From the NCBI GenBank assembly GCA_963769885.1, contig CAVYNH010000006.1, positions 96,001 through 160,000 of the forward strand: a stretch of DNA of 64,000 nt, in the 5' to 3' direction. The notes under the pieces are model-generated. The model was not told the DNA's origin. It saw only the letters and a program-made list of their open reading frames with translations, and did not search any database. The position numbers and the translations under genes are program-made. Below, one piece after another: positions 1 to 64,000 of this stretch (within the stretch, counting starts at the first letter, position 1; each line of letters starts with the position of its first letter). This DNA is from Methanobacteriota archaeon (GTDB lineage Archaea; Thermoplasmatota; E2; DHVEG-1).

Positions 1-690
1 GCCGATGGCCGGGATGTTGTAGGGGGTGTCGATGATGCCGTTTTCGTTCGCATCGGTTTTGTTGAGGTTCTCCCAGTAGTTGCCGGCGGCACCGTTATCC
101 CACTGATTGCTCTGCGTCGCGAATGCGGGGTAGGAGTTACTGAAGAAGTTGTTGAAGAAAATTATGTTTGCGTTTTGGGTAGCGTAGATGCCGTAGAAGT
201 TGTCGCGGATGATGTTCTTGGAAACGAGGCAGCCGGGAGCCGCAAGCGTGATGCCGGAGTCGTTGCCGAGGGAGCCGCTGTGTTGGATGGTGAAGTTGGT
301 GAGGATGGAGTTGGATTGGGTGAACCTGACACAGGTGCCGCTGCCGCCGGCGTCAATGGAGGTGTCGCTGCGCCGTTCGCCGAAGACGGTGATGAAGGAT
401 TTGTCGATGACGACGTGTTCAGGGTAGGTGCCGTGGAAGACGAAGACTGTGGTATGGGAGGCGGCGTGGTCGATGCCTTGTTGGATGAACTGATAGGGGT
501 GCTCGAGGGTGCCCTCCCAGGGGCCGTGGGTGTTGTTGATGTCGACGTAGATAACGAGGTCGGTCCGTTGGGTCTGACCTTGGGTTCGAGTTGGGGCGGT
601 GGATGAACTGGCGAGGGGTAGGATGAACAGGGATGCGGTGATGATGGCTGCGATGGTGATGCCTAGGCGGCTGGTTTTGATGATCCTCAT
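1..690 (-). CDS. Secreted NosD-like parallel beta-helix protein (3' end runs off the window)
   Basis: Hand-translated, not in the ORF track: MRIIKTSRLGITIAAIITASLFILPLASS signal peptide, IYVDINNTHGPWEGTLEHPYQFIQQGID, GNYWENLNKTDANENGIIDTPYNI. GGAGG upstream of the ATG at 688-690. Confidence 0.8.
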   Translation of the reverse strand, partial: MRIIKTSRLGITIAAIITASLFILPLASSSTAPTRTQGQTQRTDLVIYVDINNTHGPWEGTLEHPYQFIQQGIDHAASHTTVFVFHGTYPEHVVIDKSFITVFGERRSDTSIDAGGSGTCVRFTQSNSILTNFTIQHSGSLGNDSGITLAAPGCLVSKNIIRDNFYGIYATQNANIIFFNNFFSNSYPAFATQSNQWDNGAAGNYWENLNKTDANENGIIDTPYNIPAIG

Positions 691-1025
691 TTCGTTTCCT
701 CCCACATGGGAATATAAAGTCTGTAAGAGAGAGTACGGAATTCCATATTTATAATTTTCTGAAAAATATAATTTATGTCGTTTGGTATTGTTCCTTGGGG
801 TGTTAAAGGAGGAATTTGCCGTTTTTGAAGATGAGGTTGCCGTCGGCGTAGACTTGGCCATTTTTGTGTAGGTCGGGGGGGACATCATTGAGACTTTGAA
901 GTAGTATTGTGCAAATTTGTATTTGGGGAATGGAAAAAAACCTTCTAAATTCTTCTTAAATACCAAGAATGGTTCGAAAATTAGATAAGGAGCTTTTATC
1001 ATTCATTTTCTAGGGGAGGAATCCC

Positions 1026-2828
1026 GTGAAGAAACTGCTGGTAATTGGATTGATTTTGCTTTTTCTTTGTTCAAGTTTTCTCACCGCTACTCAGACGGCG
1101 AGTAAAAACATGCTGAGAGGCAATGGGGATATTCTTTATGTTGGGGGATCTGGGCCGGGTAATTACTCAACGATACAGACGGCTATTAATGCTGCATCAG
1201 AAGGCAGCCTCATTATTGTCTATGGGAAAACGTATCATGAGAATGTAGTTTTGAACAAATCCCACCTCACCTTAAGGGGAGTGCAGGGTGGGAAGAGCTT
1301 TCCCTTCGTGAGCGCCGGTTCGGGCAATTGGGCTTTCTTCTTTGAAAATGACTCATGCGCGATTGAGAATTTCACGGCGATGAATGGACGCACAGCGGCG
1401 ATCTATATTGTTTCCAATCATAACACCATTATAAATTGTAATACAATCGATTACTGGCTAGGAGTCCTAATTAGTGGTGGTGATTTCAATAACGTTAGTT
1501 ACTGTAGCATGAGCGGGAATGGTTTAAGGGGAATCGAATTACGATCCTCAAACAACAATACGTTTATTGGGAATCATATTAGTGAGCAAGGGCAATACGC
1601 GATTCTAATCGGCGGTTCGGCACATAATTGGATACGACAGAACATCTGTGAACAGTGTCCTATTCAGATAGAGAATTCGCCGATGAACTTGGTGGAAGAG
1701 AACACTATCGTGAACGACTCAAAAGGACTCGTACTTACTAATTCCAATTTCTCAAAGGTTCTTTGCAACAATTTTGTTAACAATGGACTCTCTGTGAATG
1801 GACCTCTGGATGAACTTTTGTCTTATACGGTCGAAGGGAATCTCAACAATGGAAAGCCGATGATGTATTACAAGAATCTTAACGGAGTCATTGTCCCCAA
1901 GGATGTCGGCGAAATCATTCTTGTGAACTGTTCTCATTTCCTAATTGAAAACAGCAGCAATTGCGAACACCGACTCTTGATTTTTTATTCATCAAATATT
2001 ACGATTACGCGAAACTCTTGTCTTGAGTACATCCAATTGGTCCACTCACAAAATAATATTATTTCAAACAATAGACTTGTGGACGTATGGGGCGGGATCG
2101 CATTAGATCATTCAAACAGGAATGTTATTGCCAATAACACTGTCAAAAATAAAGGCTCCTCTGCTGGAATCAAAATTTCTAGTTCGAACGACGACATTAT
2201 TGAAAACAATTTAATTTCCAGTTGTGAATTTGGCGTAGATATCTCTGGTACAAGAATGAGCATCTGTAATAACTCAATCAAAAACATATCAGCTTGGGCG
2301 ATATCAATCAGCATCGATGATTCGAAAGTCTGCAATAATATTCTTTATAATGGAGAAGAAGGAATCACTATCACTGGTTCCAATAATATTTTAAATGGCA
2401 ACTATATCGAATCATGTCATGTTGGAATCGACTCCGGTTCCAGTTCTTCGACAATATCCAATAACACCATCACAAAAAATAGGATAGGAATTGCGCTGTT
2501 TTATTCAACCGACAAAGTCATATTAAATCAAATTCAATGGAATGTCATTGGTATTTTCGCCTTTTCCTCTGAAGCGTTTATTGAAAAAAACAACATAGTA
2601 AAGAACCTGATTGACTCAAGTTTTTCTTGTTTTCAACTACGAGGAATAGTATTTTTAAAATGGAAGAATAATTATTGGGGGTTTTTCCATTTGTTTAGAA
2701 AGCACATTCTAGGCTCTATTGTAATTTTATTTCCTATAGGTTATTATAGCGGGTTTTCGATTTTCCTGCCTTGGCTAAAATCTGATCGAAGACCTGCTCA
2801 TACTCCCTATAATATTACGCCCAATTAG
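1026..2828 (+). CDS. Secreted NosD/right-handed parallel beta-helix repeat protein
   Basis: Signal peptide, LYVGGSGPGNYSTIQTAIN start motif, many Asn-rich SNN(x)I repeats, GGAGG RBS. AT-rich relative to its neighbours. Confidence 0.85.
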   Translation: MKKLLVIGLILLFLCSSFLTATQTASKNMLRGNGDILYVGGSGPGNYSTIQTAINAASEGSLIIVYGKTYHENVVLNKSHLTLRGVQGGKSFPFVSAGSGNWAFFFENDSCAIENFTAMNGRTAAIYIVSNHNTIINCNTIDYWLGVLISGGDFNNVSYCSMSGNGLRGIELRSSNNNTFIGNHISEQGQYAILIGGSAHNWIRQNICEQCPIQIENSPMNLVEENTIVNDSKGLVLTNSNFSKVLCNNFVNNGLSVNGPLDELLSYTVEGNLNNGKPMMYYKNLNGVIVPKDVGEIILVNCSHFLIENSSNCEHRLLIFYSSNITITRNSCLEYIQLVHSQNNIISNNRLVDVWGGIALDHSNRNVIANNTVKNKGSSAGIKISSSNDDIIENNLISSCEFGVDISGTRMSICNNSIKNISAWAISISIDDSKVCNNILYNGEEGITITGSNNILNGNYIESCHVGIDSGSSSSTISNNTITKNRIGIALFYSTDKVILNQIQWNVIGIFAFSSEAFIEKNNIVKNLIDSSFSCFQLRGIVFLKWKNNYWGFFHLFRKHILGSIVILFPIGYYSGFSIFLPWLKSDRRPAHTPYNITPN

Positions 2829-2858
2829 AAAAATTCTGTTTTAATTTTTCCTGGGAAC

Positions 2859-9606: not shown

Positions 9607-9642
9607 TTTCGTTTCGAAAAAAAGAAAAAAGGACGGGGTGTC

Positions 9643-9756
9643 TTATCCGACCATGAGTCGGAGGCAGAGCCCGATCATGAACACACTGGATAGAGTCGCG
9701 AGGTAGAACCAGGTCTTATCCCAGTCCTCTCTGACGAGCGCGTGCACTTTATCCAA
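9643..9756 (-). CDS. Putative 37-aa single-pass membrane protein
   Basis: TTG start after GAGGA, reads MDKVHALVREDWDKTWFYLATLSSVFMIGLCLRLMVG, followed by a T-tract on the minus strand. Too short for the ORF track. Confidence 0.5.
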   Translation of the reverse strand: MDKVHALVREDWDKTWFYLATLSSVFMIGLCLRLMVG

Positions 9757-9918
9757 CGTCCTCAGTCTCCTCGGATACGAGAATTCAGATGGTATTAATA
9801 AGCTTTCCCGCTAAAAACACCCGTTAAATAGACAGTACGGAAATTTGGCAGTCAAAATAACAAACAATGCTTTTATAGTGGGTCCTAGAAAAAGTACCTG
9901 GCCCTGAGAGGTTAGGCA

Positions 9919-10353
9919 ATGCTCGTAAGAGATATCATGACCAAAGAGGTCGTCACCATCGAAGCCAGTCAGACCGCAAAAGCCGCCTGCGAGATGTACA
10001 AGGACCGCGGCGTCGGCTGCCTCATCGTCACCCAAAACAGCCTCATCATCGGCATCCTCACCGAACGCGACATCATCGAACGCATCATCCTCGGCGAACG
10101 CAACCCCAAGACCACCACCGTCCACGACATCATGTCCACCAACATCAAGACCATCCACGGCTACGCCACCATCGAGACCGCCACCAAAGTCATGAAAGAC
10201 AACCACATCAAAAAACTCCCCGTCATCCTCAACAACAAGATCGTCGGCATCATCACCGCCACCGACATCTCCAACCGTGTTCCCCAATACACGCGCGAGG
10301 TCCAACTCTACGCCACCCAGGATGGCCCCTACCAACTCATCCCCGAACGATAA
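9919..10353 (+). CDS. CBS-domain pair protein
   Basis: VRDIMTKEVVTI, IGILTERDII, HDIMSTNIKTI, KKLPVI...VGIITATDI. Confidence 0.92.
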   Translation: MLVRDIMTKEVVTIEASQTAKAACEMYKDRGVGCLIVTQNSLIIGILTERDIIERIILGERNPKTTTVHDIMSTNIKTIHGYATIETATKVMKDNHIKKLPVILNNKIVGIITATDISNRVPQYTREVQLYATQDGPYQLIPER

Positions 10354-10426
10354 GACACCAAGGAAAAAACGTGGGCTCCACCGCTTCCCTCACCAATATT
10401 ATATGTTGGCGACCCCGCGGCTCTTT

Positions 10427-10981
10427 CTATTTCTGATACTTCCAGTCCCGGTAGTACGCGAACCGACGACTGCGGGAAAATTGGTCCGGCGAGCCATCCG
10501 ACGACAGCGCGTCCCGGATGATGCCTTCGATGTCCCGCAACAAAATAGCGGACTCCTCCGTATCATAGTCCACCGTCATACTCGACCCATCCCGGTACAC
10601 CACGCCCTCCTCCGAGTCGAACGACATGGTCGGGCTCAGCTGCAGGTCCGGGTCGAACCGGTCGATCTCCTCCAGCTGCTTAAGCTGATAACAATCCTCC
10701 GCCATCCCAATCATGGTCCGGTACCGCTGGATCTCCTGCGGGCCCCGCGCGGCCTTGATGCAGTCCTGCAGCGTCGAGACCACCGCCGGCAGCTCCGCTA
10801 TCGACAGGCCCAACAGGACCTCGCGCCAGAACCAGCTGTAGACCTTGCTGCCCCGCGCATTGACATGCTCCGGGGCACGATCCGGATACAGGATCACCCG
10901 GCCGCCCAGCGTCCGATGACGACGACGCCACTCCGACCGCTGACGGTCAAGCTCCCGCTTCTTCGGTGCACTCACTGCCAT
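10427..10981 (-). CDS. Hypothetical protein (184 aa)
   Basis: ATG ORF with protein-like composition that fills the gap, with an AT-rich promoter upstream. No family recognised. Confidence 0.6.
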   Translation of the reverse strand: MAVSAPKKRELDRQRSEWRRRHRTLGGRVILYPDRAPEHVNARGSKVYSWFWREVLLGLSIAELPAVVSTLQDCIKAARGPQEIQRYRTMIGMAEDCYQLKQLEEIDRFDPDLQLSPTMSFDSEEGVVYRDGSSMTVDYDTEESAILLRDIEGIIRDALSSDGSPDQFSRSRRFAYYRDWKYQK

Positions 10982-11197
10982 GCATTCTCACGACACATTA
11001 TTACAAATAGTATAATATAAATATTATGGAATAAATAAAAGACGCCGTCGCGCCGAGAAAAAAACGAGGCCACGGACAACGCGCCAACGCTCCCCGACTT
11101 TTCTTCCCTCAACACCTAAAAAAACCCGCTCAGCCCCTTCCCGAAGCTCGGAACATTTAAATAGATTGCAACAAATAGATAAGTTGGGGAACCTCAT

Positions 11198-13090
11198 ATG
11201 AAGAAACTCCTTTCCTGCTTCCTCTTAGCCATGGTGCTACTCCCGACTGCCGCTGCAGCCGCCACCATCCTTCCCCTACCCTCCACCCACACCCTCACCC
11301 AGACCATCATCTTCCATCCCCCACAGATCACCCAAACCGGCGGCCATAGCACCATCGCCATCGACAACACCAACACCCGCCTCAGCCAACCAGGCGCCCC
11401 AAGCCTCCCCGAACAGCTCCTCACCTACACCTTCCCCCTCGGCACCATTATCACCTCAATTTCCGTCCACTTAGCCGCCGACCAGACCTACCAGCTCCCG
11501 ACAGCCCTCGACTGCCTCGCATCGCCCCTGACCATCGTTGATGACACCGCCCTGTCTGCACCCGTGATGGCCGCAAGCCTCGAAGCCTATCCTCAGCAGC
11601 ACTGGACCTATGACCTGGGCGCCGGCCTCCTCGGAACACAGCACACCCTCTACCTCAATGTCCGTCTCACCCCCGTCCAGTACCACCAGGCGGCCCAGAC
11701 CATCAGCTTCTCCCCCACCGCGTCTGTGACAATCCAGTATCAAGACCCGGTCTCGAATCCCGCTTCCCTCAAAGGGAGCTATGACCTGGTCATCATCGCC
11801 CCTGAGAAGTTCACGGATGCCCTCACGCCCCTTGTCAACCATAAAATCGCCCATGGAGTCTCAACCCTGCTCGTGGCCAGGGAAACAATCTGCAACAATA
11901 CCAACTACTCCCAAGGCCGCGACTGCGCCGAGAAACTCAAACTCTTCATCAAAGACTGCATCGAGCAGTACAACATCTCCAGCGTCCTGCTCGTCGGCGG
12001 CCGCAAGGGCGGCATCCTGAAAGAGAAATGGTGGATGCCCGTCCGCTACAGCCACCTCGACGATGAATCCGATTTCGAGGCAAGCTACCTTTCCGACCTC
12101 TACTTCGCCGACATCTACAAGTACGACAACCAATCGGGAAAAACCTTCGAAGACTGGGACTCCAACGGCAACGGCGTCTTCGCCGAATGGAACAGCAACG
12201 GCAAAGACATCCTCGACATGTACCCCGATATCGCAATCGGCAGGCTCGCCTGCAAAAACCTCCATGAGGTCAAGACCGTCGTCAAGAAGATCATGACCTA
12301 TGAGAACACCACCGCAGGCACAGACTGGTTCAAGACCCTGATCGTCGCCGGCGGCGACAGCTCCCCCTGGGACAAGTGGAACGAAGGCGAAGAGGAGAAC
12401 AAGGTCGCGATCAGCTACCTGCCCGACTTCACCTCCGTCAAGCTGTGGACCTCGGACGGCAGCCTCAACAGCACAGACGACGTCATCACCGCCGCCCGCA
12501 ACGGCAGCGGGTTCCTGTTCTTCGACGGCCACGGCAACCCCTCGCTGTGGGCCACGCATCCCCACAACTCAACAACATGGATCGACGGCCTCTTCTCCTC
12601 GGACATGATCAAACTGCGCAACGGCGACAAGCTGCCCATCATCGTCTGCGGCGCCTGCCATAACGCCCAGTTCAACGTCTCCCTCGGCAACCTCATTAAA
12701 TGCTTCCTGCAGCAGCCGCTCACGTATTTCAAGCACCGGTTCTATTACATGGACTGGATCCCCGAATGCTGGGCCTGGCGGTCCGTCAGCGTCCCCAACG
12801 GCGGCAGCATCGCCTGCCTGGCGTACGCCGGCCTCGACTGGTTCACCGAAGGGGACGGTAACCATGACGGCATCCCGGACTGCGTCCAGCTCTACAGCGG
12901 ATACATGAACTGTAACTTCTTCTATAACTACGGCGTCCGCAACATCACCACGCTCGGGCAGACCGTTGCCCAGGACATCACCGGCTACCTCACGAAATAC
13001 CCCCCCATGGCCTACAAACTCGACTGCAAGACCTGCCAGGAGTTCACCCTCCTCGGCGACCCGACCCTCATGATCGGCGGGTACTCATAA
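11198..13090 (+). CDS. Secreted C25 (gingipain-like) cysteine peptidase with propeptide
   Basis: Signal peptide, PGAPSLP propeptide, VLLVGG, SDLYFADI, PDIAIGRL, catalytic FDGHGN and CGACHN, C-terminal LLGDPTL. Confidence 0.9.
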   Translation: MKKLLSCFLLAMVLLPTAAAAATILPLPSTHTLTQTIIFHPPQITQTGGHSTIAIDNTNTRLSQPGAPSLPEQLLTYTFPLGTIITSISVHLAADQTYQLPTALDCLASPLTIVDDTALSAPVMAASLEAYPQQHWTYDLGAGLLGTQHTLYLNVRLTPVQYHQAAQTISFSPTASVTIQYQDPVSNPASLKGSYDLVIIAPEKFTDALTPLVNHKIAHGVSTLLVARETICNNTNYSQGRDCAEKLKLFIKDCIEQYNISSVLLVGGRKGGILKEKWWMPVRYSHLDDESDFEASYLSDLYFADIYKYDNQSGKTFEDWDSNGNGVFAEWNSNGKDILDMYPDIAIGRLACKNLHEVKTVVKKIMTYENTTAGTDWFKTLIVAGGDSSPWDKWNEGEEENKVAISYLPDFTSVKLWTSDGSLNSTDDVITAARNGSGFLFFDGHGNPSLWATHPHNSTTWIDGLFSSDMIKLRNGDKLPIIVCGACHNAQFNVSLGNLIKCFLQQPLTYFKHRFYYMDWIPECWAWRSVSVPNGGSIACLAYAGLDWFTEGDGNHDGIPDCVQLYSGYMNCNFFYNYGVRNITTLGQTVAQDITGYLTKYPPMAYKLDCKTCQEFTLLGDPTLMIGGYS

Positions 13091-13126
13091 GAAAAGAAAA
13101 GGAACGAAAGCAAAAGGTGAACCGTA

Positions 13127-15406: not shown

Positions 15407-15426
15407 AACGGACGACCTCCCCTCTC

Positions 15427-15442
15427 TTTTTTTCTCCTTTTT
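15427..15442 (+). terminator. Oligo-T tracts after the M14 gene, possible archaeal terminator
   Basis: TTTTTTTCTCCTTTTT about 20 nt after the stop codon. Confidence 0.4.
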
Positions 15443-45909: not shown

Positions 45910-45915
45910 ATGTCT

Positions 45916-48682: not shown

Positions 48683-48828
48683 GGATAAATCCTCCCTTTA
48701 CCTTGATACAATATCATTGTAAGGTTATTTCAAGTTTTTTACGTGTTTTTTGTAACTTTTTTCCTGGTTTCTTGAAGATGAGAAGATTTAAATAATCATT
48801 CCCGCATCCTTCCCACAAGGGATTTTTG

Positions 48829-49901: not shown

Positions 49902-50662
49902 AACCGCGCCTGCGCAAGCGACCGCGGACACGGACACGACAGCCCCGACGGCACCATCTCCAGCGCCCCTGCAAGCACCTTGGCAAGCATCGGCTCCCGC
50001 TGCGAATAAATCCTAACGATCTCTTCCGCATTCAACCGATGCTGCAGGCCGGCAGCCATATTGCACACCAGGCATATGGCGGCAAAACAAATCCCCTTCT
50101 CACGCGCCAACACCACTTCAGGCACCAGCGTCATCCCCACGATGTCCGCGAACGAAGAGAACACCCGGATCTCCGCCGCTGTTTCCAACCGCGGGCCCTC
50201 CGTCACCAACAGCACCCCCCGCCCATGAACCTTAGCATTGGGTTGCGTCTTCGCTGCCTTAAGAAGACACGCACGCAACGCCGGGCAGAACGGATCAGTC
50301 ATGTCCACATGCACCCGCGACTCATCAAAGAACGTCGACGGGCGCGACCTCGTCATATCGATGAAATCATGAGGCACGACGAAATCCCCAGGCTCAAACG
50401 ACTTCTTCAAGGAACCGACCGTCCCCACCGAGAGAATCGCCTCCACTTGACTCTCCGCCAAGGCCGAGATCGTCGCCCGGGCGTTCACCCGATGCGGGGG
50501 AAGATTGGCCTCCTCCCCATGGCGGTTGACGAAAAACAAGGTATGACCCTTCGCCTTCGCAATCCGAAGCACGACCGAGCCGTACGGCGTCTCAACCGTG
50601 ACCAACTCCGGACGCCTGATGAGCCCGGGAATCAAATGCCCGCTGATGATGCCGATGTTCAT
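49898..50662 (-). CDS. MTAP-family purine nucleoside (methylthioadenosine/methylthioinosine) phosphorylase
   Basis: VETPYG, RHG...PPHRVN, VGSL, TEGPRLETAAE, VGMTLVPEVVLARE, VCNMAAG. Confidence 0.9.
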   Translation of the reverse strand: MNIGIISGHLIPGLIRRPELVTVETPYGSVVLRIAKAKGHTLFFVNRHGEEANLPPHRVNARATISALAESQVEAILSVGTVGSLKKSFEPGDFVVPHDFIDMTRSRPSTFFDESRVHVDMTDPFCPALRACLLKAAKTQPNAKVHGRGVLLVTEGPRLETAAEIRVFSSFADIVGMTLVPEVVLAREKGICFAAICLVCNMAAGLQHRLNAEEIVRIYSQREPMLAKVLAGALEMVPSGLSCPCPRSLAQARL

Positions 50663-50766
50663 CCAGAACTCCTCTCAAAAGCAAAGACATCCCCTGTTCG
50701 TAAATTAACCTTTCTTCCGGCCCGTGAACAGCTTTTAGTACACCGCCCCCCATACCCCAGGACATC

Positions 50767-51438
50767 ATGAGGGTCGCTGTACTCTTCTCCGGAGGAAAGG
50801 ACTCCACCTATGCTGCCTACATCGTCCAACAATGGGGCTGGGACCTTACCCACCTGGTCACCCTCATCCCCCAGAACACCGAATCCTGGATGTTCCACTC
50901 CCTCAACCTCACCCTCACCGGACTACTCGCCGAAGCACTTCAAATCCCTTTCACATCGAAGACAACCAAAGGCCACAAGGAGGACGAACTGATGGATCTC
51001 GAATCACTCCTCAAGACGCTGCCCATCGACGGCGTCGTCAGCGGCGCCATCGCCTCCGAGTACCAGCGGACCCGCATCGAACGCGTCTGCGACCGCCTCG
51101 GCCTCAAAAGCTTCACCCCCCTCTGGCACAAGGACCAGGGACTCCTCCTGGAAGACCAGCTCCACGCCGGATTCAAAATCATGATCGTCGGCGTCTTCGC
51201 CGAAGGCCTCACCAAAGACTGGCTCGGCCGCCTTATCGACCCCGCCGCCCTCGCCACACTGCGCAGCCTCCACGAGACCACGGGCATCAACATCGCAGGC
51301 GAAGGCGGGGAGTACCAGACCCTCGTCCTCGACGGACCCGGCTTCCACGCCCCGCTCATCATCGACGAGCAAGAGACCCGCTGGGACCGCGACAGCGGCA
51401 CCATCCAGATAAAAAAAGCGCACCTGGGACGACGCTAG
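50767..51438 (+). CDS. Diphthine--ammonia ligase (Dph6)
   Basis: LFSGGKDS, SWMFH, GAIASEYQ, PLWH, GEGGEYQTLV. Confidence 0.92.
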   Translation: MRVAVLFSGGKDSTYAAYIVQQWGWDLTHLVTLIPQNTESWMFHSLNLTLTGLLAEALQIPFTSKTTKGHKEDELMDLESLLKTLPIDGVVSGAIASEYQRTRIERVCDRLGLKSFTPLWHKDQGLLLEDQLHAGFKIMIVGVFAEGLTKDWLGRLIDPAALATLRSLHETTGINIAGEGGEYQTLVLDGPGFHAPLIIDEQETRWDRDSGTIQIKKAHLGRR

Positions 51439-51755
51439 TACGTCAGGTAATGCAAGGCCTTCAACTGCTGCAGGAACAGGAACAGCCGCTGGTCGATATT
51501 CTCCTCAGCCGGGAACTTCTCCTTCACCCGGCCCAAAACATCCTTGACCGTCAACTGACCGTCAATCGTCACCCAGACGAACGACCCCAGGGCATCAAGG
51601 TTCGCCTCAATCTTGTTCTCCTTATGAAGCAGCTTGACGAATTTCGCCCCGGTCTTGCTCGTGAACTTCGGCACAGAAATCACGACCCGGTCCTCCGCAG
51701 TCGCCCGCCAGGGCCATTCCTCCCGACTCGGTCGATACGACAGAAACTCATCCAC
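51435..51755 (-). CDS. PqqD-family (RRE-like) protein
   Basis: NLDALGSFVWVTIDGQLTVKDV...RLFLFLQQL. Directly downstream of OPT. Confidence 0.78.
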   Translation of the reverse strand: MDEFLSYRPSREEWPWRATAEDRVVISVPKFTSKTGAKFVKLLHKENKIEANLDALGSFVWVTIDGQLTVKDVLGRVKEKFPAEENIDQRLFLFLQQLKALHYLTY

Positions 51756-51768
51756 GGTCGGCAGCGGG

Positions 51769-53817
51769 TTACCTCTCTTTCGTGTCTTTGGCGTAGATAT
51801 ACCTCAAGGGGATATACCAGAGGAGCGCCCCGATAAAGATGAAGACAAGAATGCTCGGCAGAATCGGCGGGAACTCAAAGACCTGGAAGTTCAACCCGAA
51901 CACGATGCAGAACGCGACCGTCACCCCCATCAGGGCCTCTCCAGCAATCAACCCCGCTGTCAGCAGCAGCCCGGTTCTTATAATCTTTTCTTTCGGTTTG
52001 ACATCCGTCTGTTTGATCGCCAGCTCCCACTCGCTAATCTGCTCCTCCTCCGCCGAGCCGTACTTCTTCGTAATCGCCCGATCGGTGAGGTACCGGATGA
52101 TGCCACCGAGGAAAATCGGCGTCGTGAGCGTAAACGGCAGATAAATCCCAATCGCCACCGGAAGCACCGGCAGATTAATCAGAATCAATACGAACGCCAG
52201 GACCATGCCGGCGATGACGAACGGCCAGACCATCTGACCACCCAGCACCCCCTGCACGATCCCCTTCATAAGGAACGCCTGGGGCGCAGGAAGATTCGTA
52301 CTCCCAATCCGGTACGCCTTATCCAAGGCCTGGACGACGAGCGCCAGAATCGGCGCCGCAGCCATGACCCCGATGATCTCCGCGATCTGCTGGTTCCGCG
52401 GCGTCGCACCAACCATTTGACCACACGTCAGCGACTGCAGCACGTCACCAGAAATCGCCGCCGCACAGCAAATCACCGCGGCGATGAGAATCGCGACCCC
52501 CGCCGCTTGGATATTCCCAGACAGCCCAAACCCAAGAAGGATCAGCGCCGTGATCAGTAACACCGAGACAGTCACCCCAGAAATCGGGTTATTCGAAGAC
52601 CCAAGCAGTCCGGCCATGTACCCCGCAATCGCGCTCGCCACGAAGGCGAACAGAACCGCGAAGACCGCCATGACCGCCGAGACCACCCACAACGAAGAAA
52701 TCCAGACATAGACCAAGAAAATCGGGATTGTCAACAGCCCGATCATCAAGAACACGAACTTGAAGTTCAGATCCTGATCCGTGCGCTTCTTCACAACCCC
52801 GCTGCCGCCACGGAGCCCCGCGATCGCCTCACGGATCCCACTAGCGAGGTTCGACCGCAGACGGAAAATCGTATACAGACCGCCGACAACCATCGTGCCG
52901 ACTCCAATATACCGAATATAATTCCCCCAGATGGCGAAGAATCCCCAGATCTGGTACCCCGTATTCGCATTCCCGAATCCTAAGGCCAGCGCATCGGTGA
53001 TATCCGAAGGCGTCGTCGGCGTCGGCAATCCGGTCGCAAGCGCGATGAGCGGTGCCAGGATGACCCAGCCGAGTAGCCCGCCAACGAAGACGAATGAGGA
53101 GATCTTCGGGCCGATGATCCACCCGACACCAAGCAGTGCAGGCGAGGCCGCAACCCCACCATAAAAAAACCCTTCTTTTGTGCCACCACCGATGTTGAAC
53201 TTCCCAATATCCGCAATACCGTGAATAGCGCCGCCGAAAATCTTTAAGCCCACCTGGCCGAATTTAAATATCGCAGCGACGAGTGCACCGACCACAAGCC
53301 AGATGCCGCTCACGCCGGATTCGCCCTTCTTCTCCCGGGCGACCTCCCCGCCGACCGTCGTGGTCAGCACCGCAGCGACCGCAACACCCTCGGGGAACGG
53401 CAAATCTGTCTTGATGATGAGCGCGCGACGGAGAGGAACCATCCAAAGGACACCAAGGATGCCACCGAACATGGCGATAAGCGTCGTCTCAACATAGTGG
53501 ATCTCCGTCCAGGTTCCCAGGAGGACCAGGGCAGGGATTGTGAAAATAACCCCAGCGGCGAGCGCCTCACCGGAGGCAGCGCCCATCATCCCCAGGTTGA
53601 CTTCAAGGATGGTACCTTTCAGGGGACGTAGGATGGCAAACGCCATGACGGCACCGGGAATGACCGCGGAGACCGTCATCCCGGCGTACAAGCCGAGATA
53701 CGCGTTCGCCGCACCGAGAATAACCGCGAGGATGGCTCCGACGAGCACGGCCTTAAGGGTGAGCTCAGGGATCGATTTACTCGCAGGAATGAACGATTGG
53801 AAGTCTTCGCGCGACAT
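51769..53817 (-). CDS. OPT-family oligopeptide transporter
   Basis: ELTLKAV, NAYLGLYAG, IFTIPAL, LPFPEG, GSSNNPISG, GATPRNQQ, LPAPQA, GLIAGEAL. Confidence 0.95.
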   Translation of the reverse strand: MSREDFQSFIPASKSIPELTLKAVLVGAILAVILGAANAYLGLYAGMTVSAVIPGAVMAFAILRPLKGTILEVNLGMMGAASGEALAAGVIFTIPALVLLGTWTEIHYVETTLIAMFGGILGVLWMVPLRRALIIKTDLPFPEGVAVAAVLTTTVGGEVAREKKGESGVSGIWLVVGALVAAIFKFGQVGLKIFGGAIHGIADIGKFNIGGGTKEGFFYGGVAASPALLGVGWIIGPKISSFVFVGGLLGWVILAPLIALATGLPTPTTPSDITDALALGFGNANTGYQIWGFFAIWGNYIRYIGVGTMVVGGLYTIFRLRSNLASGIREAIAGLRGGSGVVKKRTDQDLNFKFVFLMIGLLTIPIFLVYVWISSLWVVSAVMAVFAVLFAFVASAIAGYMAGLLGSSNNPISGVTVSVLLITALILLGFGLSGNIQAAGVAILIAAVICCAAAISGDVLQSLTCGQMVGATPRNQQIAEIIGVMAAAPILALVVQALDKAYRIGSTNLPAPQAFLMKGIVQGVLGGQMVWPFVIAGMVLAFVLILINLPVLPVAIGIYLPFTLTTPIFLGGIIRYLTDRAITKKYGSAEEEQISEWELAIKQTDVKPKEKIIRTGLLLTAGLIAGEALMGVTVAFCIVFGLNFQVFEFPPILPSILVFIFIGALLWYIPLRYIYAKDTKER

Positions 53818-56502: not shown

Positions 56503-57828
56503 TTAATTCTTTGGTGAATGCAAGGGTTGGACGTGCAGAAGCTGCTCTTCCTTGCGCAGAATCAGAACTTTTGTCCCCGGCTCAATCTCCACCGCCGAGG
56601 TCGCCAGCCAGTACTCCCCTTTATACCGCACGTACCCCGGCTTCCCGGGGGCCAGCAGGTCCAGCGTCACCGCCGTCTCACCCGCAAACACGCCGATTGA
56701 CGGCCGCTTCCGCCGGATCTGAATCACCTTATACAAGACAAACGCAAAGAACACCGCGAAGATGATGATCACCAAGAGCAGGATGAGGAACGCCGTCGTC
56801 ATGTAGTCACCGGAAATCAGCCACTCCCGGGTCGGATAGCTCGGGATGAGGAACACGCCGCCGAAGACCAGACAGATGATCCCGCCGATCCCCACCACCG
56901 TGAACCCCGGAGTAACATAGATTTCGACCAGGAGCAGAACCGCACCCAGAATTATAAAGATTATGCTGAGCGCCGAGATGCTAAACCCGATGCCCACCAA
57001 TCCCAAGAGGATCATGATGCCGCCGAAGACCTCCGCGCCATACCCCGGCGTCGACAACCCGATCAGCAACGCAAATACCCCCAGCATCAGTAACAACGCC
57101 GACAGGATTGGATTCGTCAACAGACTATACAGCCGCAGGGACAATGGACGCTCATAGGTCAGCTGCGGCGCCCCCGCCGTCTCCAGCGTCACCGTCCCCG
57201 AAACCACCGAGACATTACGCCCATCCAAAACCATAAGCAATTCTGGGATGCTATCAGCGAGGACCTCGACGACCCCCAGCTGCCTTGCGACAGTCGCATT
57301 CACATTCCGATTTTGCGTGATGAACTCCGCGGCTAACGTCTCGTTCCGGTCATACATCTGTGCCCGTTCCTGCAGCCAACCCACGAGAGCATTGATGGTC
57401 TTTGAATCATCGATGAGCCGTGTTCCGGTTATTCCGATTTCAACGGGCTGGCATGAGCCGATGACCGTATGGTTGGCCATGGCTGCCACGTGAGAACTGA
57501 GCAGCAGGAACGTTCCCGCGGACCAGGCCGCCGCACCGGACGGAGATACGTACCCGATGACGGGGATGGTGCTGTTCTGAATCAGACTGGCCATCGCAAA
57601 AGTCTGCTGCAGCCCACCTCCCGGAGTATTGAGGAGCGCGATGACCGCCTGGGCGTCGTGTGCCCTCGCATACGCCATCGCGTTAGCGAAGGCGTCGGCG
57701 GTCGTCTGATCAATCTCATCAGTGATGCTGACGAGGACCACGGGTCGCTGCTGCTGGGCGACCGCAAGCGGAGTCGCCAGTAGGACGGAAAAGAAGAGAA
57801 GAAGTAAGAGAAGAGGACCGCGTCTCAT
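56503..57828 (-). CDS. NfeD-family membrane-bound serine protease (stomatin operon partner)
   Basis: LNTPGG, AWSAG ClpP-like domain, TM region, C-terminal GYVRYKGEYWLA OB domain. Confidence 0.92.
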   Translation of the reverse strand: MRRGPLLLLLLFFSVLLATPLAVAQQQRPVVLVSITDEIDQTTADAFANAMAYARAHDAQAVIALLNTPGGGLQQTFAMASLIQNSTIPVIGYVSPSGAAAWSAGTFLLLSSHVAAMANHTVIGSCQPVEIGITGTRLIDDSKTINALVGWLQERAQMYDRNETLAAEFITQNRNVNATVARQLGVVEVLADSIPELLMVLDGRNVSVVSGTVTLETAGAPQLTYERPLSLRLYSLLTNPILSALLLMLGVFALLIGLSTPGYGAEVFGGIMILLGLVGIGFSISALSIIFIILGAVLLLVEIYVTPGFTVVGIGGIICLVFGGVFLIPSYPTREWLISGDYMTTAFLILLLVIIIFAVFFAFVLYKVIQIRRKRPSIGVFAGETAVTLDLLAPGKPGYVRYKGEYWLATSAVEIEPGTKVLILRKEEQLLHVQPLHSPKN

Positions 57829-58592
57829 TCTTTCTTGTGGGTCACTGCCCGTGCGATCCCCGCGATGTTCCCGATCTCGCCGCCGGGGACGACGATGAGG
57901 TTCTTTTCTCGGGCGATCTCAGTGAGCGTCTGAAGTTCACGCAAGCGTAAGGCAACCGGTGTTTGCTCGTAGAGTTTCGCCGCATCAGCCATTTTCTGCG
58001 ACGCGAGGAACTCTCCTTCGGCCATGATGATACGCGAGCGCTTCTCCCGCTCCGCCTCGGCTTGTTTGGCGATAGCCCGGAGCATCTCCTCAGGCAAAGA
58101 GACATCCTTAATCGTGACCGCTGAGATCTTTATCCCCCAGGGGTCGGTCCCAATATCAAGGATCTCCTGCAGGCTCTTATTCAGTTCTTCGCGTTGAGCG
58201 AGAAGCTCATCAAGACTCTTCTGCCCAAGGATATCACGAAGGGTCGTCTGGGCAAGCAGACTCGTCGCGACATCGTACCGCTGTACCTCGACAATCGCCT
58301 TTTGGGCGTCGGTGATCCGGAAATAGACGACAGCGTCCACGTCCACCGTCACGTTATCACGGGTGATCACGCGTTGTTTGGGGACGTCGATGACACGGGT
58401 ACGGAGATCGAGCTTGATGATACGGTCAACAACCGGGATGATGAAGACGAGACCGGGGCCTTTGATGCCGGCCAGCCTCCCAAGTCGGAAGACGACAATC
58501 CGCTGGTACTCCGCCATGATGCGGATTGCGGCCGCGAGCAGGACGACAATTAAGATTAGAATGACGATGCCGACGATAACAAAATCGACCAT
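57825..58592 (-). CDS. Stomatin/SPFH (slipin) protein
   Basis: VVFRLGR...GPGL, ITRDNVTVDVDAVVY, AQTTLR, DPWGIK, QAEAERE. Confidence 0.95.
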   Translation of the reverse strand: MVDFVIVGIVILILIVVLLAAAIRIMAEYQRIVVFRLGRLAGIKGPGLVFIIPVVDRIIKLDLRTRVIDVPKQRVITRDNVTVDVDAVVYFRITDAQKAIVEVQRYDVATSLLAQTTLRDILGQKSLDELLAQREELNKSLQEILDIGTDPWGIKISAVTIKDVSLPEEMLRAIAKQAEAEREKRSRIIMAEGEFLASQKMADAAKLYEQTPVALRLRELQTLTEIAREKNLIVVPGGEIGNIAGIARAVTHKKE

Positions 58593-58685
58593 TTTTTCTC
58601 ACCTTGGGAGCATTCAACCTGTGTTACTTCTTAAGAGTTTCGCTCCTAAGGCGACGGGGATCGTGGTGTAACGATATTTTTTTAA

Positions 58686-60011
<1,326 letters not shown>

Positions 60012-60091
60012 TTTTTTTAGGGTTTTTTTGTCTGGAATTGCCATAAAATATTTGATGGTAGACCGGTTACCTGTGGGCGAGGCGGAAAGTT

Positions 60092-61030
60092 ATGAAGATT
60101 CTGGTTACCGACAAGACCGAGCAGGAAGTGCTCAATCAGCTGAAGTCATCTGGCCACGAGATCGTTTTCAATGAGATGGATCCCGCGACGTTACTCGCTG
60201 AGATTGGGAAGTATGATGCGTTGATGGTGCGGAGCCGGACGAAGGTGACGGCTGAGGTCATCGAGAGGGGGAAGAACAGCCTGAAGGTGATTGGTCGTGC
60301 GGGGATCGGGGTGGATAACATCGATCTCGCGGCGGCGTCGAAGTACAATATCAAGGTGGTGAATGCGCCGACGGGGTCGACGGTGAGCGTCGCGGAGCTG
60401 ACGTTGGGGTTGCTGCTGTGCGCGGCGCGGTCGATTCCGCAGGCGGACCGGTCGATGAAGCAGGGGTTGTGGGAGAAGAAGACGTTCAAGGGTGTTGAGC
60501 TCTCTGAGAAGACGCTGGGGATCATTGGGATCGGGCGGATTGGGGTGGAGCTGGCGAAGCGGGCGATGGCCTGTAACATGAAGGTGATTGCGTACGATAA
60601 GTATGTGACGAAGTCGCCGATGCATGGGATCGCGCTGGTGCCTCTTGATCAATTGCTGGCGTCCGCTGATTATATCTCGCTGCATATCCCATTCAATAAA
60701 CAGGAGGGTGCGGTGTTGAAGGAGGCTGAGTTTGCGATGATGAAGAAGGGTGTTATCCTCGTGAACTGCGCCCGTGGCGGGACGGTTGATGAAAAGGCGT
60801 TATTGAAAGCGCTGCAGGAGGGGAGGGTCCGTGCCGCAGGGTTGGATGTGTATGAGGCCGAGCCGCCGGTGCTCAAGGATCTTGTGAATCAGCCGAATGT
60901 GATTTGCACGCCGCATATCGGCGCCTCGACGAAGGAAGGGCAGCTGCGCGCTGGGTCGATTTGCGCGGAGCAGATGCTTCTGGTGTTGTCGGGGAAGACG
61001 CCGGAGTTCTGGGTGAATCGACCAAAATAA
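60092..61030 (+). CDS. serA: D-3-phosphoglycerate dehydrogenase-like D-2-hydroxyacid dehydrogenase (no ACT domain)
   Basis: VRSRTKVT, GRAGIGVDNID, GIIGIGRIG, NCARGG, LDVYEAEPP, TPHIGAST. Confidence 0.85.
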   Translation: MKILVTDKTEQEVLNQLKSSGHEIVFNEMDPATLLAEIGKYDALMVRSRTKVTAEVIERGKNSLKVIGRAGIGVDNIDLAAASKYNIKVVNAPTGSTVSVAELTLGLLLCAARSIPQADRSMKQGLWEKKTFKGVELSEKTLGIIGIGRIGVELAKRAMACNMKVIAYDKYVTKSPMHGIALVPLDQLLASADYISLHIPFNKQEGAVLKEAEFAMMKKGVILVNCARGGTVDEKALLKALQEGRVRAAGLDVYEAEPPVLKDLVNQPNVICTPHIGASTKEGQLRAGSICAEQMLLVLSGKTPEFWVNRPK

Positions 61031-61069
61031 ATGTTCAGGGGGCGGTCGCCCCCGTGATAGGTGGTTGCA

Positions 61070-61756
61070 ATGAAGAACCTCGATCGTGTAATGGAGGCGA
61101 TAGACAAGGATATTTCGGCGAAGGAGAAGGTCCGTGAGGCGGCGCTGCGGCTTTCGCGGGAGATTGTCATCACCTGCCGCCGGGCAATCCAGCATCTGCA
61201 TCGGGGGCTTGTGACTGAGTCCGAAGGGTTCATCGGTCAGGCCGCGGGGCTGCATACTGAGCTGATTGCGGCGACCAAGGACCACCAGGATATTTTCTAT
61301 GCGGGGTACGTGGAGAACGCGGAGCAGGAGTACGTCGAGGCGAGCGTCCTGATGAGCATCATGCAGGGGCGGGACTTGCCGGGTCCGCTGGAGCTTCAGG
61401 TGACGTCGAGTGCGTACCTGCTGGGGCTCTGCGATGTGGTGGGGGAGTTGCGCCGGGCGGCCTTGGATTTCATGTTGGCTGGCACGACCGCGAAGGCCTC
61501 GGAGTACCTCGAGATGATGGACCAGATCTATGATGCGGTCATGAGCTTCGATTATCCGTCGGGGCTGGTCCCGATTAAGAAGAAGCAGGACGTGATCCGC
61601 AGTCTGGTGGAGAAGACGCGGGGGGAGCTGGTCGTGGCGACATCGGAGCAGCGGATGGAGGGCCGGGCGCGTGAGGTGCACGGGTTGTTGGAGAAGGGGC
61701 GTCGGCGGTCGTCGTCGGATGAGGAGCCGGACCTTGACGTGGACAAGGTTTGGTGA
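61070..61756 (+). CDS. Archaeal translin-family RNA-binding protein
   Basis: REAALRLSREI, QEYVEA, YLLGLCDVVGELRR. Confidence 0.88.
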   Translation: MKNLDRVMEAIDKDISAKEKVREAALRLSREIVITCRRAIQHLHRGLVTESEGFIGQAAGLHTELIAATKDHQDIFYAGYVENAEQEYVEASVLMSIMQGRDLPGPLELQVTSSAYLLGLCDVVGELRRAALDFMLAGTTAKASEYLEMMDQIYDAVMSFDYPSGLVPIKKKQDVIRSLVEKTRGELVVATSEQRMEGRAREVHGLLEKGRRRSSSDEEPDLDVDKVW

Positions 61757-61803
61757 ATAAATTCCCTTGATTCCTGGACTAAAAGAAATCCTTATAAATA
61801 CCC

Positions 61804-61811
61804 TTTATATA
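61804..61811 (+). promoter_or_regulatory. TATA box upstream of the TBP pair
   Basis: TTTATATA. A second TTATAAAT lies just upstream, and GGAGAGG precedes the ATG at 61836. Confidence 0.45.
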
Positions 61812-61835
61812 CTATAAGGAGAGGAAATATCAATA

Positions 61836-62375
61836 ATGCCCGAGGTACAGGTGGAAAACATTGTTATTTCCTGCCCGATTGCGCAGACGCTCGACCTGGC
61901 CGCCCTCGCCTCAGCGTTGGCCCACGCGCGGTATAAGCCGGAGGAGTCGCCGGCGTTGATGATCCCTGTGTCTCGGCCTCGTGCCGCGGTGTTCTTGACT
62001 GCGACGGGGGAGATGACGGTGACTGGCGTGACGTCGCTGGCGGAGGGGGAGGAGGTCATCGGGATGATGCGTGAGCGGCTCGGGCTGCTTGGCGTCTCGG
62101 CGGTGCCGCATCCGGAAGTGACGGTGCGCAACGTGGTGGCGTCATTGGAGTATGGGGCGCCGTTGCCCTTGCGGTCCCTGGGCAGCTCGTTCGATGTGAT
62201 TCCTTCTGATCAGGAGGGGTTTCCTGGGTTAATGGTGCGCTCCGAGGACCCAAATACAGTTATACTCTTGTTTGATTCGGGGAAGATGGTCGCGGACGGT
62301 CCTTCGGTGGATGCGGTCTCGGCTGCGCTGACCCGGGTTGCGTCGCAACTAGCATCAGAGGTGAGAAGGAGTTAG
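61836..62375 (+). CDS. Divergent TATA-binding protein paralog
   Basis: Two TBP repeats (VENIVISC...LDL, RNVVASL...FPGL...LLFDSGKMV). The start MPEVQVENIV nearly matches the neighbouring TBP. Confidence 0.8.
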   Translation: MPEVQVENIVISCPIAQTLDLAALASALAHARYKPEESPALMIPVSRPRAAVFLTATGEMTVTGVTSLAEGEEVIGMMRERLGLLGVSAVPHPEVTVRNVVASLEYGAPLPLRSLGSSFDVIPSDQEGFPGLMVRSEDPNTVILLFDSGKMVADGPSVDAVSAALTRVASQLASEVRRS

Positions 62376-62390
62376 GAGGAAAGTTGGATC

Positions 62391-62942
62391 ATGCCGGAAG
62401 TAATCGTGGAAAACATCGTGGCATCGACGTCTTTTTCCGATAAGTTGGATCTGGACGTAATCGCCCAATCGCTGGAGGAAGCCGAGTATGAGCCGGAGCA
62501 GTTCCCTGGGCTCGTCTACCGGTTGAACAACCCGAAGACTGCGACTCTGCTGTTCCGGAGCGGGAAGGCGAATTGCACCGGGGCGAAGAACATTGAGGAT
62601 GTCCGGACGACGATCAACATCATCGCGGAGAAGCTGAAGAAACTGGGTGTGGATGTGTACAAGGACCCGGAGATCGTCATCCAGAACATCGTGGCGATCT
62701 CGGATCTCGGCGGTGAGCTGAATCTCAATGAGGTCGCGATGGCGCTGGGGCTGGAGAACGTGGAGTATGAGCCGGAGCAGTTCCCTGGTCTGGTGTATCG
62801 GATCAAGGAGCCGAAGGTGGCCATGCTACTGTTTGGTTCTGGGAAGATCGTCTGCACGGGCGCGCGGCGCATCGCGGACGTGTCGCTGGCGGTGGAGAAG
62901 CTGTCGCAGGAGCTGACGTCGCTCGGCTTGATCCATCATTGA
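62391..62942 (+). CDS. tbp: TATA-box-binding protein
   Basis: Two YEPEQFPGLVYR...LLFxSGK repeats. Confidence 0.97.
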   Translation: MPEVIVENIVASTSFSDKLDLDVIAQSLEEAEYEPEQFPGLVYRLNNPKTATLLFRSGKANCTGAKNIEDVRTTINIIAEKLKKLGVDVYKDPEIVIQNIVAISDLGGELNLNEVAMALGLENVEYEPEQFPGLVYRIKEPKVAMLLFGSGKIVCTGARRIADVSLAVEKLSQELTSLGLIHH

Positions 62943-63086
62943 CGGTTGTTGCGAGTTCCGGATACGGCCCCTTCGGATTTGTTATTTTTGTTGCATAGGT
63001 ATTTGGTTTTTTACTCGTACTATTGGCTCTTTGTGGTGGCTGCGGATGCGTAGATTTATGTACTCAGACGGGATATCAGCCTGCAG

Positions 63087-63156
63087 AGGGGTCTAATGAA
63101 AGAATATTAAGATCTGTTTCTTTTTCATTCTTTTCCTCCCAGACAATTAGACCCCT
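63087..63156. repeat. 70-bp element bounded by perfect 11-bp inverted repeats
   Basis: AGGGGTCTAAT (63087-63097) and ATTAGACCCCT (63146-63156). Confidence 0.55.
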
Positions 63157-63253
63157 TTTCCTTTCACTTTCTCCCTTCTCTTTCCCTTATGAAAACGACT
63201 CTAGACTAGGTGAGTGGAAAAGGAAAAAAGAGGGAGGGGCGGCCTATAGTGGT

Positions 63254-63788
63254 TTAGACCGAGGCGTAAAAGTCTTTGAGTTCGTCGAGCTTGGGGTTGA
63301 GCATCCCGCAGATCTTGATGGAGAAGATGTCCTCCAGCAGGAGTGTCTCGCGGACGAGGGCGGAGTAGCGCTTGTTGATGAACTCGATGAACTTCTTGGC
63401 GCCGGAGATGTCTTTGGCCGTGAAGCAGATGATGCCGTCGGTACTGGCCGTGTAGGACGCAGGCGGTGCGGATATAGATGCCGATGGACTTGGCGCTGCT
63501 CTTTTTGAAGGCGTTGATGAGGTCTTCAACGGCGTTGCCCAGCGGCTCGTTTGACCGCTTGATGAGCAGGAAGTAGTGGCGGACACCTTGCTTCTCTTTA
63601 TCGGGGACCGCGGTGTACCCCCAGATGGTTTTGTTGCTTTCGAGCCGTTTTATGATTCGCCAGACCTTTTGCCTGGAGAATCCGCACTGTTTTGCTATTT
63701 TATCGATGCTTTCGTTTGAGTTGCGCTGAAGCTGCTCGATGACCTTCTTCTCGTCTTGATCGATTTGTTTTTTGCTACTTTTGGCCAT
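63254..63788 (-). pseudogene. Lrp/AsnC regulator with a +1 frameshift near 63440 (pseudogene or sequencing error)
   Basis: HTH (NESIDKIAKQCGFSRQKVWRIIKRLE) is in one frame and the RAM C-terminus (DGIICFTAKD) in another. Removing one base at 63440-63441 restores LHGQYDGIICF and a 177-aa protein. Confidence 0.8.
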
Positions 63789-64000
63789 AGGACTCTTGCC
63801 TCCTTGGGATTTTTTTCTCCTCTCTAGATTGTTTTACGGCGTGTTGGGTGTCTATCCTGGAGAAGGAAATCACCCGGGTCTGTGTTGGTTAAATGTTATT
63901 TTTGTGTTGTAACAGGCTATTACAAAGCTCCTTATAATGTTTTTGCACAACATTTATATTACGATTCAATTCTGCGGTATTCTTTGGACAAGAAAGACAA

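What the first reader, a model, noticed from the sequence alone, without database searches (positions are those of the whole stretch)
1..64000. Sawtooth strand-skew domains (C+A versus G+T) independent of gene direction
Seen by eye: the + strand is strongly C/A-rich at about 9.9-15.4, 20.9-22.2, 25.8-28.8, 36.8-43 and 48.85-53 kb. It is strongly G/T-rich at about 0-0.9, 3.4-4.4, 17.5-20.7, 30-32, 43.7-46.2, 47.4-48.7 and 58.7-63.8 kb. G-to-C flips are abrupt at intergenic sites (about 9.8, 20.8, 48.75 kb), while C-to-G changes are gradual. It is not simply codon preference: co-oriented + genes drift from C-ending codons (M14) to G/T-ending codons (pcp), and likewise from purL to larB. Minus-strand genes (10427, archease, MTAP, OPT) sit in C-rich domains. 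Protein composition follows (Val/Gly/Arg-rich Pcp and LarB, Thr/Gln/His-rich RqcH and PAS). Known: replication skew normally flips only at origins and termini, far more widely spaced. Inference: a strand-asymmetric mutation or repair process tied to fixed sites every 10-15 kb, such as dense origins or fork barriers, or a translocating factor.
Basis: partly seen in the sequence, partly recalled or inferred. Interest (0 to 1): 0.78.

Follow-up and report, generated by a model that had tools for sequence, protein, structure and literature searches.

The report
Kilobase strand-bias domains in an archaeon
The whole chromosome of this uncultured sediment archaeon is divided into about 150-175 blocks of roughly 10 kb in which mutations push one DNA strand towards C/A and the other towards G/T at least ten times harder than the reverse, most likely a record of DNA copying that starts at many promoter regions instead of one origin.

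Summary
Confirmed and genome-wide. The host is a Thermoplasmata archaeon related to SM1-50 (MBG-D-like). Fourfold-site G/C skew swings between about -0.9 and +0.9, with 152-175 G-to-C flips about 9.6 kb apart.

The bias is mutational: Y- and R-ending codons mirror each other, intergenic DNA follows, and low-GC genes acquire it as their GC rises. A two-state mirror model fits closely (rms 0.009), with T>C and G>A favoured 10-17-fold on the C/A strand.

Corrections: skew is not independent of gene direction genome-wide (R2 0.24; 0.05 here), and the return is a 1-2 kb sigmoid, not a ramp. Transcription alone fails, because the ribosomal-protein operon oscillates and an independent lineage has the pattern with no sense bias.

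New here: the ORB-flanked oriC is itself a flip, with no replichore offset. No flip motif or lost repair gene was found. The best reading is replication from many promoter-region sites with a C/A-rich leading strand (0.45); the mechanism is inferred, not shown. The scan noted the pattern before in this genome and in other archaea.

The parts
9607..9918 (.). Abrupt G-to-C flip in an intergenic gap that also holds a small minus-strand ORF, so it is a hidden divergent promoter region
   Evidence: drop 1.31; fitted 9592, width 66 bp; ORF 9643-9798 conserved in G001
9919..16000 (+). C/A plateau on + (CBS, a minus-strand gene, M14 peptidase); fourfold keto skew -0.5 to -0.9
16000..17700 (.). Sigmoid C-to-G return inside a + gene, 3 kb before the convergent junction at 19.76 kb
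   Evidence: fitted 16846, width 1749 bp
17534..20694 (+). G/T plateau on + covering three + genes (incl. pcp) and the minus-strand PAS gene; keto skew +0.72 to +0.94
20695..21124 (.). Strongest flip of the window, in a divergent promoter gap; also a flip in the independent lineage G014
   Evidence: drop 1.72; base-level change point near 20839; G014 drop 0.97
21125..22393 (+). Short C/A arm
   Evidence: keto skew -0.63
25513..25777 (.). Flip beside an unskewed low-GC gene; start of the RqcH/pelota C/A plateau
   Evidence: drop 0.82
25778..28788 (+). C/A plateau (RqcH, pelota); keto skew -0.86 and -0.82
28500..30400 (.). Sigmoid C-to-G return
   Evidence: fitted 29432, width 1913 bp
29676..33096 (+). 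G/T plateau on + (minus-strand genes), ending in a broad flip near 32.6 kb
36424..36778 (.). Flip at a divergent gap holding the tRNA-Met gene
   Evidence: drop 1.05; tRNA 36517-36591
36779..43000 (+). C/A domain including purL (-0.82), interrupted by a lower-GC, weakly skewed gene at 38207-39700
42800..44200 (.). Sigmoid C-to-G return within co-oriented + genes, 2.4 kb before the convergent junction
   Evidence: fitted 43514, width 1433 bp
43622..48625 (+). G/T domain including larB-like (+0.86), interrupted by an unskewed low-GC gene at 46415-47254
48626..48828 (.). Abrupt flip in a divergent, AT-rich promoter gap
   Evidence: drop 1.24; fitted 48771
48829..53817 (+). C/A arm on + over mostly minus-strand genes (archease, MTAP-like, OPT)
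57250..59700 (.). Broad C-to-G return
   Evidence: fitted 58472, width 2437 bp
58728..63529 (+). G/T domain over co-oriented + genes, ending at a flip near 63.5-64.1 kb
1110..2828 (+). Low-GC gene with no skew inside a G/T domain: an internal control for recently acquired DNA (also 24559-25512 and 46415-47254)
   Evidence: keto skew 0.00, 0.04 and -0.05; amelioration gradient

Best explanation
The pattern records local direction of DNA synthesis. Shown: every native base experiences a mixture of two mirror-image substitution processes, with T>C and G>A favoured at least 10-fold on one strand. The mixing ratio switches sharply at a subset of AT-rich, mostly divergent promoter regions and switches back over 1-2 kb about 2-7 kb away. 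Inferred: those regions are ORB-independent replication start sites, about 150-175 per chromosome, with oriC as one of them. Forks run outward a few kb and meet in the sigmoid zones. G:T wobble errors (template T with dG, template G with dT) are made or escape repair mainly during lagging-strand synthesis, so the strand read as leading becomes C/A-rich, as in budding yeast. A raised A:T>G:C mutation pressure in this lineage makes the signal saturate.
For: Mirror symmetry at twofold sites: C 92% / A 66% in sense-C genes, G 93% / T 65% in sense-G genes. The two-state mixture fits 14 skew classes at rms 0.009. The process acts evenly: GC4 is 0.80-0.82 in unskewed core genes at every distance from a flip, and synonymous retention against G001 is nearly flat, 0.17-0.24. 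The promoter kernel is antisymmetric, +0.1 to +0.2 upstream and -0.1 to -0.2 downstream to about 4.5 kb, after allowing for local strand. The one ORB-flanked oriC is a G-to-C flip at a tandem junction in G000 (1.2) and G001. No replichore offset on either side of oriC (-0.03 and -0.05). With this polarity 81% of strongly skewed genes are co-directional with forks. Returns do not track the transcription convergence point (r 0.20, n.s.) and are modestly centred between strong flips (p 0.03). Precedent: C+A-rich leading strand in yeast (PMC3459929); Haloferax ori3 at a local maximum of third-position cumulative GC skew (PMC12999951); dispersed initiation with Cdc6 and ori retained in Thermococcus (PMC5663688).
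Against: No fork data exist. Only two Cdc6/Orc1 genes, one ORB pair and no motif at flips after correction. Plateaus of +/-0.9 at 10-kb spacing need near-synchronous, near-certain firing, which is unknown in prokaryotes. Over all transitions, left and right arm lengths are uncorrelated (rho 0.05) and flips are as centred between returns as returns are between flips, so the midpoint evidence is weak. oriC is not a flip in G014, G015 or G032. oriC is strongly conserved between G000 and G001, so it may still be the main origin. No lost or broken fidelity gene was found. Known strand biases in mismatch-repair mutants are about 2-fold or less and give a G/T-rich leading strand (PMC6159521; 10.1101/346874).
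Confidence: 0.45

Rival explanations
1. Directional strand replacement unrelated to replication forks. Repair synthesis or nick translation is loaded at the same promoter regions and always renews the strand running 5'-3' away from the site. G:T mismatches, or deaminated A and C in the retained strand, are then fixed in favour of the retained strand. Double-strand break resection and refill would give the same polarity.
For: Same spectrum by symmetry (A>G and C>T on the G/T strand). Antisymmetric around promoters. Characteristic arm length, median 3.4 kb, largely independent of the opposite arm. Compatible with a conserved oriC and no replichore offset. NucS, UvrABC, RNase HII and an Mre11-like gene are present.
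Against: Site-anchored tracts should fade into a different background, but GC4 and synonymous divergence are nearly flat with distance from flips. NurA was not found in five family genomes and UvrD not in G000 or G001. No known pathway renews several kb from most promoter regions.
Confidence: 0.22
2. Reverse polarity. The G/T strand is the leading strand as in bacteria, initiation occurs in the 1-2 kb C-to-G zones, and forks stop sharply at protein-bound promoter regions that act as barriers.
For: A>G and C>T on the leading strand match bacterial mismatch-repair mutants (PMC6159521). The geometry is formally symmetric. Returns are enriched at convergent junctions (31 of 176, against 6.6% at random).
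Against: oriC itself has the flip polarity in G000 and G001. 81% of strongly skewed genes, including most of the RNA polymerase operon, would be replicated head-on. Two-thirds of returns lie inside genes. Uniform initiation between barriers predicts linear ramps, which are rejected in 49 of 51 domains.
Confidence: 0.13
3. Transcription-linked damage or repair, with long read-through and antisense transcripts carrying the bias into opposite-strand genes.
For: Mean sense skew -0.28; flips at divergent gaps, and 1 of 118 at a convergent one. Arm length correlates with the outward transcription run (rho 0.31). A weak sense-C bias is also present in unskewed G003.
Against: The ribosomal-protein super-operon goes -0.95, +0.2, -0.93, +0.8 on its sense strand, and a 19-kb pilin-like operon also oscillates. 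In G014 mean sense skew is 0.00 and the first ribosomal genes are sense-G/T-rich. tRNA promoters in tandem context give no drop. 29 of 102 arms start with a gene facing the flip and still reach 2.7 kb. Gene layout predicts only 44% of the variance in cross-validation.
Confidence: 0.15
4. Codon selection, shuffling of an old two-replichore skew by inversions, or assembly artefact.
For: The assembly has a few frameshifts (DP2, cdc6-2) that are absent in G001.
Against: 154 of 358 long genes have significant internal gradients. Intergenic DNA follows (r 0.84). Opposite-strand neighbours correlate +0.34 against a null of -0.25. G001 shares gene skews (r 0.78-0.84) and junction drops (r 0.71). The identical RqcH protein occurs in an independent Logan contig.
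Confidence: 0.03

Closest known systems
Replication-associated GC/TA skew at budding-yeast origins (PMC3459929)
   Same: Many sites per chromosome, skew jumps at intergenic sites, C+A enrichment on the strand leaving the site.
   Different: Here amplitudes approach saturation (+/-0.9 at fourfold sites), spacing is about 10 kb, the host is a prokaryote with one ORB origin, no consensus motif exists, and origin activity is unproven.
Mammalian skew N-domains (described in PMC3459929)
   Same: Sharp jumps of one polarity with gradual return between them.
   Different: Opposite polarity at the jump (upward, G/T side), linear decline rather than sigmoid, and far larger scale (about 1 Mb, from my knowledge).
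Archaeal oriC skew and origin-independent replication (PMC12999951, PMC5663688, PMC7776575)
   Same: ORB/DUE origin beside cdc6; Haloferax ori3 has the same third-position polarity; Thermococcus initiates at many sites while keeping Cdc6 and ori.
   Different: Archaea are reported to have little strand-specific mutation (PMC12999951). Dispersed initiation there is not known to use fixed sites or to leave kilobase skew domains.
Strand-biased transitions in mismatch-repair mutants (C. glutamicum endoMS, PMC6159521; E. coli, 10.1101/346874)
   Same: G:T-wobble type transitions, strand-biased; A:T>G:C dominant in the E. coli mutants.
   Different: About 2-fold or less against 10-17-fold here; two replichores only; NucS looks intact here.
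GRINS (PMC8256042)
   Same: Intense local nucleotide skews that recode proteins.
   Different: GRINS are repeated elements tied to gene conversion in particular genes; here the skew tiles the whole native genome, including single-copy core genes.

Membership tests
Replication-associated strand skew (multi-origin type) | Bias is mutational and in chromosome-strand coordinates, present at silent and non-coding sites | tested here: met
Replication-associated strand skew (multi-origin type) | Polarity switches at a recognisable origin | tested here: inconclusive
   oriC is a flip in G000 and G001, weak in G034, not in G014, G015, G032
Replication-associated strand skew (multi-origin type) | Opposite switch lies where forks meet, between neighbouring origins | tested here: inconclusive
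   p 0.03 for 51 strong domains; no arm correlation over all transitions
Replication-associated strand skew (multi-origin type) | Measured fork direction follows the skew | not testable with these tools
Canonical archaeal oriC (ORB + DUE + cdc6) | Flips carry ORB repeats beside a cdc6/orc1 gene | tested here: not met
   only C6:261.7-261.9 kb has an ORB pair; the ORB core score adds nothing after covariates (t 1.1); two cdc6 genes only
Bacterial two-replichore skew | One sign on each side of oriC over hundreds of kb | tested here: not met
   strand-balanced skew -0.03 left and -0.05 right of oriC
Transcription-associated asymmetry | Sign fixed by gene strand, strongest in highly expressed operons | tested here: not met
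   expression was judged from gene identity, not measured
Mismatch-repair or proofreading-deficient mutator | Loss or inactivation of NucS, MutS or polymerase exonuclease motifs specific to skewed lineages | tested here: not met
   NucS, PolB Exo I-III and DP1 motifs intact; MutS not found in any of 31 genomes, skewed or not
GRINS | Skew confined to repeated homologous segments | tested here: not met
   skew covers single-copy core genes genome-wide

The most novel reading that the evidence does not exclude
A prokaryote replicates its 2-Mb chromosome from about 150-175 fixed, sequence-independent start sites at promoter regions, firing together about every 10 kb as in early animal embryos, and this state arose more than once in one archaeal family.
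Probability: 0.4. Interest if true: 0.92.

Novelty: new variant of a known kind. Interest (0 to 1): 0.76.

Why it matters
[quoted passage not shown] This genome shows an asymmetry of 10-fold or more that even reshapes protein composition. If the flips are start sites, the sequence itself is a base-level map of origin-independent replication in an archaeon, an open question since origin deletions in Haloferax and Thermococcus, and a model for eukaryote-like dense origins. If they are not, an undescribed directional repair process acts on most of the genome. Either way, GC-skew checks of assemblies and protein trees of such lineages can mislead.

Tried and rejected
Motif at flips: no k-mer survives length-stratified permutation (best ATTTCG, family-wise p 0.19); the ORB matrix is uninformative outside oriC. 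tRNA promoters as a sufficient cause: no drop in tandem context. Midpoint rule as proof of origins: the symmetric test showed equal centring for flips and returns, so it was downgraded. Replichore trend in the unskewed single-contig relative G003: none seen, but the scaffold contains Ns. Mutator gene search: NucS, UDG, EndoV, RNase HII, EndoIV, HhH-GPD glycosylases, UvrB, PriS, two PolB and PolD are all present in G000. MutS, NurA, PolY and histones were not found in skewed or unskewed genomes searched. A NucS C-terminal extension also occurs in AT-rich relatives, so it was rejected. Relatives' proteins missing from G000 gave no repair candidate, but only part of each genome was sampled. The DP2 and cdc6-2 frameshifts are absent in G001 and were treated as probable assembly errors. 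The metagenome scan found no relatives. Literature searches found no report of this pattern.
Full report
Setting. The window is G000:C6:96001-160000 of a 2.09-Mb, 7-contig, 92%-complete genome. Its PurL relatives are Thermoplasmata MAGs such as SM1-50 and SG8-52-3. From my knowledge these belong to MBG-D/Thermoprofundales. Genes were called with my own hexamer model (1,989 genes, 86.5% coding), so small genes may be missed.

Observation. All listed domains exist and far exceed shuffles. The pattern covers every contig. There are 152 drops of at least 0.8, median spacing 9.6 kb, or 175 drops and 176 rises by a symmetric segmentation. Median widths are 0.43 kb for drops and 1.3 kb for rises. Between strong flips the profile is plateau-sigmoid-plateau, not a linear sawtooth (49 of 51). 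Arms are 1.8-7.1 kb (10th-90th percentile), median 3.4 kb.

It is mutational and positional. Twofold sites mirror each other between sense-C and sense-G genes. Intergenic skew follows its neighbours (r 0.84), and 154 of 358 long genes have internal gradients. Opposite-strand neighbours correlate +0.34 against a null of -0.25. Genes flanked by native DNA take on the local skew in step with their GC4, slope 0.0 rising to 1.16; I read low GC4 as recent acquisition. A model in which each site mixes one process and its mirror image fits 14 skew classes at rms 0.009, with relative rates on the C/A strand of T>C 45, G>A 17, A>G 2.8, C>T 1. That is about 16-fold; my hand calculation from the extreme bins gives at least 10-fold. 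The fourfold composition (C 89%, G 1.5% at the extreme) implies that transversions are asymmetric too; I did not resolve them.

Relation to transcription. Flips favour divergent gaps (72 of 118 near a junction, 1 convergent), and sense strands are mostly C/A-rich. But gene strand explains 24% and full gene layout 44% of the variance. The promoter effect is antisymmetric, reaching upstream as well as downstream. The ribosomal-protein super-operon and a 19-kb gap-free operon oscillate internally with about 9-kb spacing. Returns ignore the point where transcription converges. Among promoter gaps, divergent orientation and an AT-rich stretch predict drop size (R2 0.21), and no motif survives correction.

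Relatives. The congener G001 has the same landscape at about half amplitude (gene r 0.78-0.84; junction r 0.71, and 0.62 for tandem junctions alone). Most family loci lack it. G014 and, more weakly, G015 and G032 have it, on separate and mostly long PurL branches; the tree needs four changes. G014 has the same polarity of sharp flips but no sense bias, and its flips are mostly elsewhere (r 0.04), except upstream of the PAS gene and at C4:66.4 kb. G000/G001 have GC4 near 0.77 against about 0.5 in the sister clade. This suggests a mutator state that exposes or amplifies the process. A faint trace of the same landscape is seen in sisters (slope 0.14-0.15, p about 0.02).

Origin. Upstream of cdc6 (C6:261.7-261.9 kb) lie inverted ORBs around an AT-rich unwinding element, conserved across the order. 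This site is a G-to-C flip at a tandem junction in G000 and G001, but its reach is only 3-4 kb, and no replichore offset exists on C6. It is not a flip in G014, G015 or G032. A promoter lies there too, so the evidence is suggestive only.

Uniformity. GC4 of unskewed core genes is 0.80-0.82 at all distances from a flip, and synonymous retention against G001 is 0.17-0.24. Every base therefore seems exposed to the same pressure, with only direction varying. This fits replication better than damage hot spots, though silent sites are near saturation and the test is coarse.

Mechanism. I favour dispersed but fixed initiation at promoter regions with a C/A-rich leading strand (0.45), over directional strand replacement (0.22), transcription (0.15) and barriers (0.13). 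Shown: the mutational nature, spectrum, geometry and phylogenetic spread. Inferred: forks, origins, and the polymerase or repair step. No candidate mutator gene was found.

Known systems and novelty. It works most like yeast origin skew (PMC3459929), with archaeal precedents for the polarity (PMC12999951) and for dispersed initiation (PMC5663688). The flips are not canonical oriCs, and the pattern is not two-replichore skew, transcription skew or GRINS. I found no paper describing it. Earlier scan notes report the same pattern in this genome and similar ones in other archaea; I did not test those other genomes, and one note describes the opposite polarity.

Verdict. Real, strong, genome-wide and unexplained by known prokaryotic mechanisms. 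New variant of replication-type strand asymmetry; interest 0.76.

Noticed in passing
window 20718-20830 (+): Conserved non-coding element at the strongest flip: a 15-bp block, a TATA box and a 10-bp-arm hairpin with stem changes, found in G001 and G014 (15-bp block also in G003). No Rfam match and no folding signal over 271 nt (z -0.6). Possibly an operator or the 5' end of a small RNA.
   Followed up: partly
window 9643-9798 (-): Unannotated ORF of about 50 codons with a hydrophobic C-terminus, 69% identical in G001 and with a match in G018; makes the 9.8-kb gap divergent.
   Followed up: partly
G000 C6:261630-262032: Textbook oriC with inverted ORBs and an AT-rich unwinding element upstream of cdc6-nucS, conserved across the order.
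   Followed up: yes
G000 C3:45380-48815 and C7:394390-395515: PolD large subunit and the second cdc6 are frameshifted in this assembly but intact in G001; probably assembly indel errors.
   Followed up: partly
window 36517-36591 (-): tRNA-Met scores only 49 bits in Rfam; scan notes suggest an insertion in its acceptor stem. It sits at a flip.
   Followed up: no
window 61836-62942 (+): Two adjacent similar genes of about 180 aa, TBP-like according to a scan note.
   Followed up: no
family-wide (G000, G001, G014, G015, G034): No histone, NurA or PolY found in five family genomes and no MutS in 31; UvrB is present in the family but not in the ten other genomes of the order searched.
   Followed up: partly
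G014 (L048, L190-L192, L219-L228): An independent lineage with its own strong skew domains and no sense bias; the best natural control for follow-up.
   Followed up: partly
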